This document shows positions 13,266 to 14,339 of a stretch of 64,000 nucleotides of DNA, piece by piece. The translations under genes were made by a program, and so were the position numbers. The DNA is from SAR86 cluster bacterium AG-313-D11 (GTDB lineage Bacteria; Pseudomonadota; Gammaproteobacteria; Magnimaribacterales; D2472). The stretch lies in assembly GCA_003284215.1 (NCBI GenBank), contig QBVW01000001.1, positions 150,127 through 214,126 on the forward strand, in the 5' to 3' direction. Within the stretch, counting starts at the first letter, position 1. Every line of letters starts with the position of its first letter. The notes under the pieces are model-generated. The model worked only from the letters and a program-made list of their open reading frames with translations. It ran no database searches and was not told the origin of the DNA.

Positions 13266-13319
13266 AATGGTGCCGGCACCAAGAGTTGAACTCGGGACCT
13301 GATGATTACAAATCAACTG
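13266..13319 (-). repeat. Orphan copy of the 3' half of tRNA-Thr(UGU) (attR-like or tRNA pseudogene fragment)
   Basis: 54/54 identity with 14262-14315 (tRNA positions ~25-76 plus 2 nt of flank). The 5' half of the tRNA is missing or degenerate. Confidence 0.9.
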
Positions 13320-13357
13320 TGTATACCTTTTAAGCCTTTAGATACAACGTTTATGCC

Positions 13358-13383
13358 TGACTACAGAAAAATATCTGTAGTCA
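13358..13383. promoter_or_regulatory. Perfect 9-bp inverted repeat TGACTACAG-N8-CTGTAGTCA (operator-like or hairpin)
   Basis: Read directly. A third half-site TGACTACAA lies at 13408-13416. All sit upstream of ORF 13443. Confidence 0.4.
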
Positions 13384-13442
13384 ATATTGGTTAATCTGAC
13401 TGCTATATGACTACAAAAGGTTAATTTTTATTACTTTTATTA

Positions 13443-13682
13443 ATGTATGATTTGAGTATGCCTAACATAAACTATTATGAAGAATCGGACACTTTATTTA
13501 ATGTAATTGTTAACACTGATTATGCTACCTATAATTTCTTAATTAATACTGACGATGTCCCTCTAATTCAAGACTGCCATGTTCTTGATAAGAGTGACGA
13601 TGAGCCTAAAAGTTATGAATTTAAATCACAGGCTCATGCCTGGATTCTTTTTAACAATAAAGTCAAAACCTATTCTCACTAG
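13443..13682 (+). CDS. Hypothetical small acidic protein (79 aa)
   Basis: Open frame in AT-rich DNA where stops are frequent; first of three packed ORFs. No SD and no recognisable motif. Confidence 0.45.
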   Translation: MYDLSMPNINYYEESDTLFNVIVNTDYATYNFLINTDDVPLIQDCHVLDKSDDEPKSYEFKSQAHAWILFNNKVKTYSH

Positions 13683-13691
13683 TTTCAGATA

Positions 13692-14099
13692 ATGAGTAAG
13701 GAAATTAATGTTGATGTATATTGCGCTAGTATTATTGGCGTTTTGCAGTATCTTTTAAAAGAAGGAGAGGAAAGTGCTAAATCTGTAGCAAAAGAATTTG
13801 CAGATGGTAAGGACCCTATTCTTGCTGAAGAGTTTCTTATGGGTGCAAAATCACTCGCTGAAAAATTATCTAAAACTAATCACACATCAGAAGAAATCCT
13901 TCCCTTAATTCCTTTGTATATAAAATTCTTAAGGAAATTCAACTCTGACTTTACGCCAAAATCATTTTTGAAGAAAACCTTTCGAGGCTCAATATTTAGC
14001 AAATCTCAAATTAATAATTTGCATGAGTCCGAAAAAAGAGTTTTGGCATTCCTCCTAAGATGCTTAAGTGGAATGGCAGACGAGGATTGGTTCAGATAA
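13692..14099 (+). CDS. Hypothetical, probably all-helical protein (135 aa)
   Basis: 135-codon open frame starting 9 nt after the previous stop; no family recognised. Confidence 0.6.
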   Translation: MSKEINVDVYCASIIGVLQYLLKEGEESAKSVAKEFADGKDPILAEEFLMGAKSLAEKLSKTNHTSEEILPLIPLYIKFLRKFNSDFTPKSFLKKTFRGSIFSKSQINNLHESEKRVLAFLLRCLSGMADEDWFR

Positions 14100-14101
14100 T
14101 T

Positions 14102-14251
14102 ATGCTGAAGACTTTTTTTGAAATTCTTTTAATACTGCCTGTAATTATTTTCATTCTACCCGGATACAACAATTGGAGTGAGGAAATTCCTAGACTAATT
14201 AATTGGTACGCTTGGATTGGAATTCCATATCTTATTTTTTTTATTTTTTAA
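14102..14251 (+). CDS. Small hydrophobic two-TM peptide (49 aa from ATG 14102; ORF track starts at 14060)
   Basis: MLKTFFEILLILPVIIFILPGYNNWSEEIPRLINWYAWIGIPYLIFFIF has two hydrophobic segments. ATG lies 2 nt after the upstream stop. Confidence 0.5.
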   Translation: MLKTFFEILLILPVIIFILPGYNNWSEEIPRLINWYAWIGIPYLIFFIF

Positions 14252-14263
14252 AAGATATTTGAA

Positions 14264-14339
14264 TGGTGCCGGCACCAAGAGTTGAACTCGGGACCTGATG
14301 ATTACAAATCAACTGCTCTACCAACTGAGCTATACCGGC
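14264..14339 (-). tRNA. tRNA-Thr (anticodon UGU)
   Basis: Reverse complement GCCGGTATAGCTCAGTTGGTAGAGCAGTTGATTTGTAATCATCAGGTCCCGAGTTCAACTCTTGGTGCCGGCACCA folds as a cloverleaf. Anticodon loop is TT-TGT-AA; one U-U mismatch in the anticodon stem; encoded CCA. Confidence 0.95.

What the first reader, a model, noticed from the sequence alone, without database searches (positions are those of the whole stretch)
13266..14315. Integrase-less ~1 kb insertion bracketed by a perfect 54-bp direct repeat of the tRNA-Thr(UGU) 3' half
**Seen.**
- AATGGTGCCGGCACCAAGAGTTGAACTCGGGACCTGATGATTACAAATCAACTG occurs identically at 13266-13319 and 14262-14315.
- The second copy is the 3' 52 nt (about positions 25-76, including CCA) of an intact minus-strand tRNA-Thr(UGU) at 14264-14339, plus 2 nt of flank.
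- The first copy is an orphan fragment. After the repeat it continues TGTATACC. This may be the remnant of the tRNA's ...GAGCTATACC 5' part after a ~12-nt deletion between the two CAACTG words.

**Known.** A duplicated tRNA 3' segment flanking foreign DNA is the classical attL/attR footprint of tyrosine-integrase genomic islands.

**Unusual.** The 942 bp in between hold only three small orphan ORFs. There is no integrase, excisionase, transposase or replication gene.

**Inference.** It is either the decayed stump of an island, a miniature cassette mobilised in trans, or a local tRNA duplication that trapped novel genes. It sits in the only accessory stretch of an otherwise core window.
Basis: partly seen in the sequence, partly recalled or inferred. 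Interest (0 to 1): 0.7.

Follow-up and report, generated by a model that had tools for sequence, protein, structure and literature searches.

The report
Integrase-less gene cassette at SAR86 tRNA-Thr
A 1-kb piece of foreign DNA sits at the end of a threonine tRNA gene in an uncultured marine SAR86 bacterium, is missing from near-identical strains, and belongs to a small family of recombinase-less cassettes that share one conserved ~96-base end. This is a tidy example of a known way that ocean bacteria swap genes.

Summary
A perfect 54-bp direct repeat (13266-13319 / 14262-14315) is the only long repeat in the window. Its second copy is the 3' 52 nt of an intact tRNA-Thr(UGU).

Three metagenome contigs about 98% identical to the window carry the empty site, with the TonB-receptor terminator running into a single tRNA. 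The 996-bp insertion is therefore polymorphic within one SAR86 species.

The insert is not all cargo:
- Its first ~96 nt (13320-13415) is a non-coding arm with a 10-bp hairpin and four TGACTRC boxes.
- The arm is 88-99% conserved next to an orphan tRNA-Thr fragment in six other cassettes (one SAR86 single-cell genome, five metagenome contigs). These sit in at least five genomic backgrounds and carry unrelated cargo, mostly lipoproteins. None has an integrase.

The window's cargo comprises three genes: ORF79 and ORF135 are under purifying selection, and a 49-aa membrane peptide is conserved. The same module lies elsewhere beside AlpA-like (HTH_17) and AAA_25 genes; a related AAA_25 element also carries an integrase fragment.

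Best reading: a CIME-like, att-flanked cassette of an additive flexible genomic island. It was made by tyrosine-recombinase integration and is now gained and lost through its repeats. Whether a trans-acting integrase or RecA does this is unresolved. It is a new member of a known kind.

The parts
13266..13319 (-). Orphan copy of the tRNA-Thr(UGU) 3' part (tRNA positions 25-76, plus 2 flank nt). This is the attR-type core.
   Evidence: Identical to 14262-14315. Not called as a tRNA. The same fragment with the same inner boundary (..CAACTG|TGTAT..) is present in L020, L063, L064, L065 and L066.
13320..13415 (+). Conserved non-coding arm next to the orphan fragment. It is the shared 'backbone' of the cassette family.
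   Evidence: One mismatch against L020, where the flanking intergenic DNA is only about 85% identical. It is 88-99% identical in L063-L067. No Rfam family matches and the scan reports no sigma-70 promoter inside the arm. The reading frame is not conserved.
13358..13383 (+). Perfect 10-bp hairpin TGACTACAGA-AAAATA-TCTGTAGTCA inside the arm.
   Evidence: Invariant in all 7 cassettes. It dominates the predicted fold; z = -3.2 for the minus strand of fragment plus arm. The exact 24-mer occurs once in the window and in none of 100 shuffles.
13397..13414 (+). Two direct TGACTRC boxes (13397-13403 and 13408-13414). Together with the two boxes in the hairpin arms (13358-13364 on +, 13377-13383 on -) they make four boxes.
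   Evidence: A cluster of three or more TGACTRC boxes within 90 nt occurs only in these arms across 1.08 Mb of window plus fetched loci. In L064 the A/G positions of the two direct boxes are swapped but the motif is kept.
13443..13682 (+). Cargo gene ORF79 (79 aa, acidic, no known family).
   Evidence: dN/dS of 0.12-0.13 against homologues in L009, L011, L012 and L014. No Pfam, PHROG or PADLOC hit.
13692..14099 (+). Cargo gene ORF135 (135 aa, predicted all-alpha, no known family).
   Evidence: dN/dS of 0.07-0.09. The family is very small: 3 clusters at 90% identity and 10 representatives among 1.8 billion proteins. The AlphaFold2 model has pLDDT 72.6 and is all helical, with no BFVD match.
14102..14251 (+).
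   Evidence: In L011 and L012 the frame has a stop upstream of the Met that corresponds to 14102. The 49-aa part is conserved: MLKTFFEILLILP..NW.EE.PRLINWYAWIGIPYLIFF.
14262..14315 (-). Second repeat copy, the attL-type core, lying inside the intact tRNA.
14264..14339 (-). Intact tRNA-Thr(UGU), the integration target.
   Evidence: ARAGORN and Rfam at 65.9 bits. It is 100% identical in most related SAR86 genomes.
13066..13265 (+). Host left flank: the TonB-receptor terminator hairpin (13073-13097) and intergenic DNA that abuts the tRNA directly in empty-site strains.
   Evidence: 96-96.5% identical to L002-L004, where it is followed at once by the single tRNA.

Best explanation
The 996 bp (13320-14315) is a small, recombinase-less, att-flanked cassette. 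It sits in an integration hot spot, an 'additive flexible genomic island', at the 3' end of tRNA-Thr(UGU) in a SAR86 bacterium.

**Origin (inferred).**
- A circular element carried the arm plus a copy of tRNA positions 25-76.
- It recombined with the chromosomal tRNA by tyrosine-integrase-type site-specific recombination, with the crossover on the anticodon-arm side of the identity block.
- This regenerated an intact tRNA and displaced a 3' fragment to the far end.

**Present state (shown).**
- The element contains only the ~96-nt arm and a three-gene module. Two of the three genes are under purifying selection.
- Other loci carry related copies of the module, and in L126/L128 it lies directly downstream of HTH_17 (AlpA/Xis-like) and AAA_25 genes. 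A related AAA_25 element (L134, which lacks the module) also carries an integrase fragment.
- The cassette is present in some strains of the species and absent in others.
- It is one member of a family of at least 7 integrase-less cassettes that share the fragment-arm junction and carry unrelated cargo.

**Present dynamics (inferred).** Gain and loss go through the 52-54-bp repeats. The agent is either a recombinase supplied in trans or in cis by a related integrative element, with the TGACTRC boxes as arm-type binding sites (a CIME-like route), or RecA acting on the repeats.
For: - **Exact boundaries.** The repeat is perfect, the tRNA is intact and the boundaries are exact.
- **Empty site.** Contigs about 98% identical carry an empty site that differs by exactly the insert, with SNPs spread evenly on both sides.
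- **Shared junction.** The same orphan fragment with the same inner boundary, followed by the same arm, occurs in L020 and L063-L066; in L067 the arm follows a decayed copy of that fragment. Their left flanks differ: TonB receptor, 119-aa membrane gene, 172-aa CxxC gene and two others. Four unrelated cargo types follow, all reading from arm to tRNA.
- **Arm conservation.** The arm has 1 mismatch between the window and L020, although their flanking intergenic DNA is about 85% identical and their flanking proteins are 79-90% identical.
- **Crossover position.** In L066 the orphan and the intact copy differ at 3 positions. All three lie on the T-arm/acceptor side and none in the anticodon arm. 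This fits a crossover in the anticodon arm between two tRNA alleles.
- **Link to integrative elements.** The cargo module lies directly downstream of HTH_17 (AlpA/Xis-like) and an AAA_25 ATPase in L126/L128. A related element, L134, has a phage-integrase N-terminal fragment. Related AlpA-AAA_25 elements follow an orphan tRNA-Arg half plus their own ~190-nt conserved arm. In L010 the module lies in an island flanked by tRNA-Ser halves.
- **Known kind.** tRNA-end repeats next to variable cassettes are described for additive flexible islands in Alteromonas (PMC4898812) and Methylopumilus (PMC10872708). Partial tRNAs and degraded elements are described in Prochlorococcus islands (10.1101/2020.12.28.424599). 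CIMEs are defined as att-flanked elements that have lost their integration genes (PMC6323972).
Against: - **No recombinase found.** None was found in the window, in the 7 cassettes, or within 6 kb of the site in 47 genomes, most of them SAR86.
- **No parent element.** No integrase-bearing element with this arm or at this tRNA-Thr was found. No viral contig has the arm, and all 50 viral matches to the tRNA are complete phage tRNA genes.
- **One-sided conservation.** Only the attR side is conserved. The attL side, next to the intact tRNA, shows no conservation, which is unusual for a two-armed attP.
- **L067 gradient.** In L067 the tRNA fragment has decayed to 58% identity while the distal arm is 97% identical. 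The arm may therefore be kept for something other than recombination.
- **No direct evidence of excision.** No circular junction or tandem array was seen.
Confidence: 0.6

Rival explanations
1. Exchange is by homologous recombination only, as in the 'minimal mobile elements' described in Neisseria (recalled from my own knowledge). The orphan fragment plus arm is the relic of one ancient event. Since then, cassettes have been swapped between SAR86 lineages by RecA, using the universally conserved tRNA sequence, the fragment and arm, and the right flank as portable homology. Empty sites arise by RecA deletion between the 54-bp repeats. The distal arm is conserved because it is an expression or regulatory signal for whatever gene follows it.
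For: - No integrase was found anywhere near any cassette.
- All cargo reads away from the arm, whose end lies 27 nt upstream of the first start codon in the window and about 50 nt in L020.
- L067 shows a gradient: fragment 58%, proximal arm 83%, distal arm 97%. This fits either a function independent of the att core or repeated homologous replacement with crossovers inside the arm.
- The tRNA is 100% identical across most of these species, so homology is always available.
Against: - Homologous recombination cannot create new arm-cargo junctions, yet at least four unrelated cargo types abut the same arm end.
- The left-flank genes differ between carriers, so only about 52 nt of homology is available on that side.
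- The L066 mismatches are all on one side of the anticodon arm.
- The scan finds no sigma-70 promoter in the arm.
Confidence: 0.25
2. A local tandem duplication of the tRNA-Thr gene occurred. One copy then lost its D-arm region and decayed, and unrelated genes were trapped between the copies. No mobile element is involved.
For: - After the repeat the orphan continues TG-TATACC, which resembles the tRNA's ..GC-TATACC 5' part after a deletion between the two CAACTG words.
- L024 carries a degenerate but nearly full-length second tRNA-Thr copy 244 bp from the intact one.
Against: - A duplication does not explain the exact empty site in strains about 98% identical.
- It does not explain why the identical fragment-arm junction occurs in at least five different genomic backgrounds with different cargo.
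- It does not explain the arm's near-identity between species whose flanks are about 85% identical.
- It does not explain the cargo's presence in AlpA/AAA_25 elements.
Confidence: 0.07
3. The duplicated tRNA segment is an assembly artefact, a mis-join at a conserved tRNA.
For: For this particular cargo, both junctions are seen together only in the window itself. The independent Logan contig L001 stops inside the repeats.
Against: - The cargo is assembled independently at 100% identity, with repeat sequence at both ends.
- Cluster members that are 99% identical occur on contigs from other samples, including one of 1002 nt. That length equals 942 plus two 30-nt k-mer overlaps (the arithmetic is my inference).
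- Five other cassettes of the same architecture are assembled in single contigs with both copies, one of them in a single-cell genome.
Confidence: 0.02

Closest known systems
Additive flexible genomic islands at tRNA genes (Alteromonas, PMC4898812; 'Ca. Methylopumilus' tRNA-Lys island, PMC10872708)
   Same: - The same chromosomal slot next to a tRNA holds different small cassettes in different strains and species.
- Cassettes are marked by direct repeats of the tRNA end.
- Most genes have unknown function.
- Nearly identical pieces occur in divergent backgrounds.
   Different: - Every cassette found here is single, 0.7-1.5 kb long and lacks an integrase.
- All share one ~96-nt conserved arm next to the orphan fragment. 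The passages I read in those papers do not mention such an arm.
- The host is uncultured SAR86.
Cis-mobilizable elements (CIMEs) of streptococcal ICEs (definition in PMC6323972)
   Same: An element that has lost its integration and transfer genes but keeps the att repeats, and that could be moved by a related element's recombinase.
   Different: - No cognate integrative element using this att site was found.
- Only the attR-side arm is conserved.
- No conjugation system is involved or known in SAR86.
Tycheposons and their remnants in Prochlorococcus islands (10.1101/2020.12.28.424599)
   Same: - Streamlined marine host.
- tRNA-adjacent islands with partial tRNA repeats.
- Degraded elements and cargo left behind.
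- The window's cargo module occurs elsewhere next to an excisionase-like gene and a replicative ATPase, the kind of module tycheposons carry.
   Different: - There is no tyrosine recombinase or replication module in the window element.
- tRNA-Thr(UGU) is not among the seven tRNAs listed there.
- No relationship of the L134 integrase fragment to tycheposon recombinases was tested.
Integron gene cassettes
   Same: Promoter-less or small cassettes with unrelated cargo, each carrying one short conserved recombination-type end and all in one orientation, serviced by a recombinase encoded outside the cassette.
   Different: - There is no attC structure, no IntI and no attI.
- The recombining core is 52 nt of a tRNA gene.
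- No arrays were seen.
- This is an analogy only.

Membership tests
tRNA-integrating tyrosine-recombinase genomic island / integrative element | The insert is flanked by a direct repeat of the tRNA 3' segment, with an intact tRNA at one end. | tested here: met
   54-bp perfect repeat and an intact tRNA-Thr(UGU).
tRNA-integrating tyrosine-recombinase genomic island / integrative element | An integrase gene lies inside the element. | tested here: not met
   Only ORF79, ORF135 and ORF49 are present, with no Pfam or PHROG hits.
tRNA-integrating tyrosine-recombinase genomic island / integrative element | An empty attB site exists in close relatives. | tested here: met
   L002, L003 and L004 (about 98% identical) have a single tRNA and differ by exactly 996 bp. 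L021 is the empty counterpart of L020.
tRNA-integrating tyrosine-recombinase genomic island / integrative element | Excision to a circular form carrying attP. | not testable with these tools
   This needs raw reads. The Logan contig L001 (29 + 942 + 24 nt) is not interpretable as a circle.
CIME (cis-mobilizable element) | It lacks integration and transfer genes. | tested here: met
CIME (cis-mobilizable element) | It retains functional attL and attR. | tested here: inconclusive
   The core repeats are perfect and the attR-side arm is conserved. The attL side shows no conservation. Function cannot be tested here.
CIME (cis-mobilizable element) | A related autonomous element uses the same att site. 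| tested here: inconclusive
   The cargo module occurs next to HTH_17 and AAA_25 genes, and a related AAA_25 element carries an integrase fragment. None of these was seen at tRNA-Thr or with this arm.
Additive flexible genomic island | The same tRNA-adjacent slot holds different cassettes in different strains or species. | tested here: met
   The slot upstream of tRNA-Thr (TonB receptor to tRNA in the genome loci) is empty or holds 172-aa, 119-aa or 372-aa genes, lipoprotein cassettes or the window cassette.
Additive flexible genomic island | Partial tRNA repeats mark the cassette boundaries. | tested here: met
   Window, L020, L063, L064, L066 and L024 have both copies; in L065 and L067 the second copy is cut by the contig end or is itself only a fragment.
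Tycheposon | A tyrosine (or serine) recombinase plus a replication or excision module lies within the element. | tested here: not met
   Absent from the window element. Present only next to homologues of the cargo elsewhere.
Integron cassette | An attC site at the cassette end and an IntI/attI platform. | tested here: not met
   No integron-integrase-like ORF was found. The conserved end is a tRNA fragment plus arm, and the tRNA-proximal end is not conserved. No attC model was run.
Minimal mobile element (exchange by homologous recombination only) | Different cassettes lie between the same conserved flanking genes, with no repeats or mobility sequences. | tested here: inconclusive
   The cassettes do differ, but they are bounded by tRNA repeats and the left-flank genes differ between carriers.

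The most novel reading that the evidence does not exclude
The tRNA-Thr 3' half plus the ~96-nt arm, with its invariant hairpin and four TGACTRC boxes, may be a minimal portable recombination module. It would define a previously undescribed class of integrase-less 'tRNA-anchored' gene cassettes. These would be functionally analogous to integron cassettes but would use a tRNA gene as the docking site. They would shuttle envelope-protein and other small genes between SAR86 species. A recombinase encoded elsewhere would service them, for example one from the AlpA/AAA_25/integrase elements that share cargo with them.
Probability: 0.22. Interest if true: 0.7.

Novelty: new member of a known kind. 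Interest (0 to 1): 0.42.

Why it matters
SAR86 is one of the most abundant uncultured bacterial groups in the surface ocean, and how its streamlined genomes acquire flexible genes is poorly documented.

- **A defined site to study.** This locus is a base-pair-defined insertion site that is polymorphic within a population. It has a filled allele (the window), empty alleles (L002-L004) and sister cassettes in other species.
- **A direct test.** Gene gain and loss can therefore be followed directly in metagenomes, through junction reads and allele frequencies.
- **A candidate cis-acting signal.** The conserved arm is a concrete candidate for either recombination or expression.
- **Limits.** The cassette carries no recombinase, and its three genes have no known function.

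Tried and rejected
- **Helper phage or attP.**
  - The 51-mer of the repeat and the 24-mer hairpin have no exact match in IMG/VR.
  - A 30-mer of the tRNA matches 50 viral contigs. All are complete phage-encoded tRNA-Thr genes without the arm or an integrase.
  - ORF135 and the AAA_25 protein have no relatives in viral contigs.
  - The cargo DNA and ORF135 have no match in GenBank phages. The AAA_25 protein has only a 23%-identical RecA-like hit.
- **Integrase in the neighbourhood.** It was run against all ORFs of the window, the cassette loci and 47 genomic loci, most of them SAR86. This is a rough screen and would miss very divergent recombinases.
- **Known RNA or promoter in the arm.** Rfam gives nothing beyond the tRNA itself. 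The sigma-70 scan reports no site in the arm, and the hairpin is flagged only as a weak terminator-like site. The hairpin is invariant, so covariation cannot be tested.
- **Function of the cargo.** Pfam, PHROGs and PADLOC give no hits. A profile search of 1.8 billion representatives returns only 10 proteins, all without annotation. The AlphaFold2 model has no BFVD match. The afdb50 library was unavailable.
- **Logan contig L001 as a circle.** Its ends (29 and 24 nt of the repeat) add up to one base short of a full circle. This fits neither a k = 31 cycle nor a clean unitig, so I draw no conclusion from it.
- **Independent confirmation of the filled junction.** Exact look-up of the window's TonB receptor found nothing on record.
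- **Direct repeats around the L118/L119 block.** None were found.
- **tRNA fragments around the L011-L014 block.** None were found.
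Full report
**1. The observation**

The 54-nt sequence AATGGTGCCGGCACCAAGAGTTGAACTCGGGACCTGATGATTACAAATCAACTG is present identically at 13266-13319 and 14262-14315. A self-comparison of the whole window shows it is the only repeat of 20 nt or more in 64 kb.

ARAGORN finds an intact tRNA-Thr(tgt) at 14264-14339 on the minus strand, and Rfam's tRNA model scores 65.9 bits there. The repeat is the tRNA's 3' 52 nt, including CCA, plus two flank bases. The upstream copy is not a tRNA.

Between the copies lie 942 bp with three ORFs on the plus strand and no hit in Pfam, PHROGs or PADLOC. G+C content (0.30-0.35) does not differ from the surroundings.

**2. Organism and locus**

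The flanking 244-aa protein retrieves 47 genomic loci. The closest 29 are almost all labelled SAR86 cluster genomes or MAGs, with 57-93% identity. The window is therefore a SAR86 genome. The local order is TonB-dependent receptor, tRNA-Thr(UGU) on the minus strand, the 244-aa protein, msrA, birA, then tRNA-Tyr, tRNA-Thr(GGT), tuf and tRNA-Trp.

**3. Empty sites exist**

Exact look-up of the 244-aa protein returned three longer metagenome contigs (L002, L003, L004) from different samples. In these the gap between the TonB receptor and the 244-aa gene is about 1 kb shorter than in the window.

The alignment shows the window's left flank running into one tRNA-Thr and then the window's right flank. 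The difference is exactly cargo plus one repeat copy, 996 bp. Over 4-6 kb these contigs are 97.8-98.3% identical to the window, with SNPs on both sides of the site. This is a presence/absence polymorphism within one species-level population.

**4. The slot is a hot spot**

In related SAR86 species the distance from the TonB receptor to the tRNA varies from about 340 to 2,220 bp.
- The slot is empty in L016 and L021.
- It holds a 172-aa CxxC protein in L017, L018, L022, L023 and L031-L035.
- It holds a 119-aa membrane protein in L020, L024 and L025, and a 372-aa protein in L019.

Two genomes have a second tRNA-Thr piece.
- L020 (single-cell genome AG-313-P16) has a perfect 52-nt fragment 1,525 bp from the intact tRNA, with two lipoprotein genes between them.
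- L024 has a degenerate, nearly full-length tRNA copy 244 bp away.
- L021 is the empty-site counterpart of L020.

**5. A conserved arm defines a family of cassettes**

The only similarity between the window insert and the L020 insert is the tRNA fragment plus the next ~96 nt. This is 98.7% identical over 152 nt, whereas the shared upstream intergenic DNA is about 85% identical and the cargo is unrelated. The side next to the intact tRNA is not conserved.

A 24-mer from this arm (GACTACAGAAAAATATCTGTAGTC) gave five metagenome contigs, L063-L067. Four have the same layout: orphan tRNA-Thr fragment with the same inner boundary (..CAACTG|TGTAT..), arm (88-99% identical), 1-2 cargo genes reading from arm to tRNA, then tRNA-Thr, which is intact in L063, L064 and L066 and cut by the contig end in L065. 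L067 differs: its orphan fragment has decayed and the cassette ends in a second tRNA fragment rather than an intact tRNA.

The cassettes are 0.7-1.5 kb long and none contains a recombinase. Their left flanks differ: TonB receptor, the 119-aa gene, the 172-aa gene and two other genes. Cargo falls into four unrelated types. Outside the window these are mostly lipoproteins with lipobox signals such as LLISCGGGG.

The arm contains an invariant 10-bp hairpin and four TGACTRC boxes, one of them inverted. Such a cluster occurs nowhere else in 1.08 Mb of window plus loci. It matches no Rfam family, the scan reports no sigma-70 promoter in it, and it has no conserved reading frame.

**6. Two details bear on mechanism**

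- In L066 the orphan fragment and the intact tRNA differ at three positions. All three lie in the T-arm/acceptor part, and two of them form a compensatory pair, so these are two natural tRNA alleles. The anticodon-arm part is identical. This is what a crossover in the anticodon arm between an element-borne and a host allele would leave.
- In L067 the tRNA fragment has decayed to 30/52 identity and the proximal arm to 30/36, but the distal arm is 59/61 identical. There is also no intact tRNA on the other side. The distal arm is therefore either under selection independent of the att core, for example as an expression signal, or is refreshed by recombination together with the cargo.

**7. The cargo**

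ORF79 and ORF135 are real genes, with dN/dS of about 0.1 against homologues of 75-93% amino-acid identity. The third ORF starts at 14102 and encodes a conserved 49-aa membrane peptide.

The ORF135 family is very small: three 90% clusters and ten 50% representatives among 1.8 billion proteins. Its model is all-alpha with pLDDT 72.6 and has no viral structural match. The function is unknown.

The module, at about 74-84% nucleotide identity, occurs in several other contexts.
- In L010 it lies next to the 5' end of tRNA-Ser(GGA), inside a 5.2-kb island flanked by 39-nt repeats of that tRNA's 5' half.
- In L011-L014 it lies in a 1.5-kb block with variable flanks, next to a T5orf172 gene in L011 and L012.
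- In L118/L119 it is preceded by a diverged arm-like sequence that is contiguous with the module, as in the window.
- In L126/L128 it lies directly downstream of an HTH_17 (AlpA/Xis-like) gene and an AAA_25 ATPase.

A related AAA_25 element (L134) carries a phage-integrase N-terminal fragment, Endonuclease_7 and an RNase_H_2-domain protein. More distant AlpA-AAA_25 elements (L133, L135-L138) start right after an orphan 40-nt 5' half of tRNA-Arg(TCG), followed by their own conserved ~190-nt arm. The window's cargo therefore belongs to the gene pool of tRNA-targeting integrative elements in these bacteria.

**8. What was not found**

- No integrase was found in the window, in any cassette, or within 6 kb of the site in 47 genomes.
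- No integrase-bearing element with this arm or at this tRNA was found.
- No viral contig carries the arm. The 50 viral matches to the tRNA are complete phage tRNA genes.
- GenBank phages give no match.
- There is no evidence of a circular form. L001 is uninformative.

**9. Interpretation**

*Shown:*
- The insertion is precisely bounded and sits at the tRNA 3' end.
- It is polymorphic within a species.
- It belongs to a family that shares one fragment-arm junction.
- Its cargo is shared with integrative elements.
- It has no recombinase.

*Inferred:*
- It originated by tyrosine-recombinase integration. Identity blocks running from the anticodon arm to the tRNA 3' end are the classical pattern for such integrases; this is established knowledge, not tested here.
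[quoted passage not shown] Degraded elements and partial tRNAs are likewise described in Prochlorococcus islands (10.1101/2020.12.28.424599).

*Unresolved:* I cannot tell whether present-day gain and loss use a trans- or cis-acting integrase, with the TGACTRC boxes as arm-type sites, or RecA acting on the 52-54-bp repeats, with the arm kept for expression. I put about 0.6 on the general model, and within it roughly equal weight on the two engines. The local-duplication reading gets 0.07 and the assembly-artefact reading 0.02.

**10. Verdict**

It is a clear new member of a known kind, a tRNA-associated additive island or CIME-like cassette. The modest new feature is the conserved one-sided arm shared by integrase-less cassettes across SAR86 species. 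Interest is moderate (0.42). The more novel reading, a dedicated tRNA-anchored cassette system, is not excluded (probability about 0.2).

Noticed in passing
window 8064-10367 (+): A second TonB-dependent-receptor-like ORF (767 aa) is interrupted by five or more long His/Glu/Asp-rich low-complexity tracts (for example HEEEEHHDEDEDHDDHEEEEHEEHEE and HGDEHGDEHGDEHGEEEEGHDEHEGE). This is unusual for a beta-barrel receptor and suggests metal binding.
   Followed up: no
window 14457-15191 (+): This 244-aa protein has an N-terminal signal-like sequence and no Pfam family. It is conserved next to tRNA-Thr in SAR86 (57-93% identity) and more distantly (37-43%) in Halieaceae, Luminiphilus and SAR92 MAGs. 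It is an uncharacterised family restricted to marine gammaproteobacteria.
   Followed up: partly
L024 5563-5803: SAR86 genome AG-447-M16 has a degenerate, almost full-length second tRNA-Thr copy 244 bp from the intact gene. The spacer holds only a possible 37-aa hydrophobic peptide and no arm.
   Followed up: partly
L010 9486-14779: A 5.2-kb island is flanked by 39-nt direct repeats of the 5' half, not the 3' half, of tRNA-Ser(GGA). The ORF79-ORF135 module sits directly next to the intact tRNA. The contig is a 4x long-read assembly with many broken ORFs.
   Followed up: partly
L133 9355-21023; L135-L138: These elements start with an orphan 40-nt 5' half of tRNA-Arg(TCG), then a ~190-nt conserved arm, AlpA, ORF65 and AAA_25. 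In L133, L135, L136 and L138 the cargo is two trypsin-like peptidases, joined in L133, L135 and L136 by a 1,105-aa CHAT protein, a Mu Gam-like protein (Pfam hit in L133 only) and a sigma-70-like protein, which may be a defence island. In L137 the cargo is replaced by metabolic genes.
   Followed up: partly
L068-L117 (IMG/VR contigs): Fifty viral contigs carry complete tRNA-Thr(UGU) genes 93-97% identical to the SAR86 gene, often within phage tRNA clusters. Such genes offer long homology with the host tRNA.
   Followed up: no
L067 52-1277: This cassette has a decayed orphan fragment, a well-kept distal arm and two lipoprotein genes. It ends in a second tRNA-Thr 3' fragment rather than an intact tRNA, next to a trmA-like methyltransferase gene.
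   Followed up: partly
L118 2707-2963 (also L119 1878-2134): A 68-nt direct repeat (82% identical, 189 bp apart) lies just upstream of two small ORFs, downstream of the ORF79-ORF135 module.
   Followed up: no
L017, L018, L022, L023, L031-L035 (slot between TonB receptor and tRNA-Thr): Many SAR86 species carry a conserved 172-aa protein with an INGCxICM (CxxC) motif in the slot where the window has its cassette. No tRNA fragment accompanies it.
   Followed up: no
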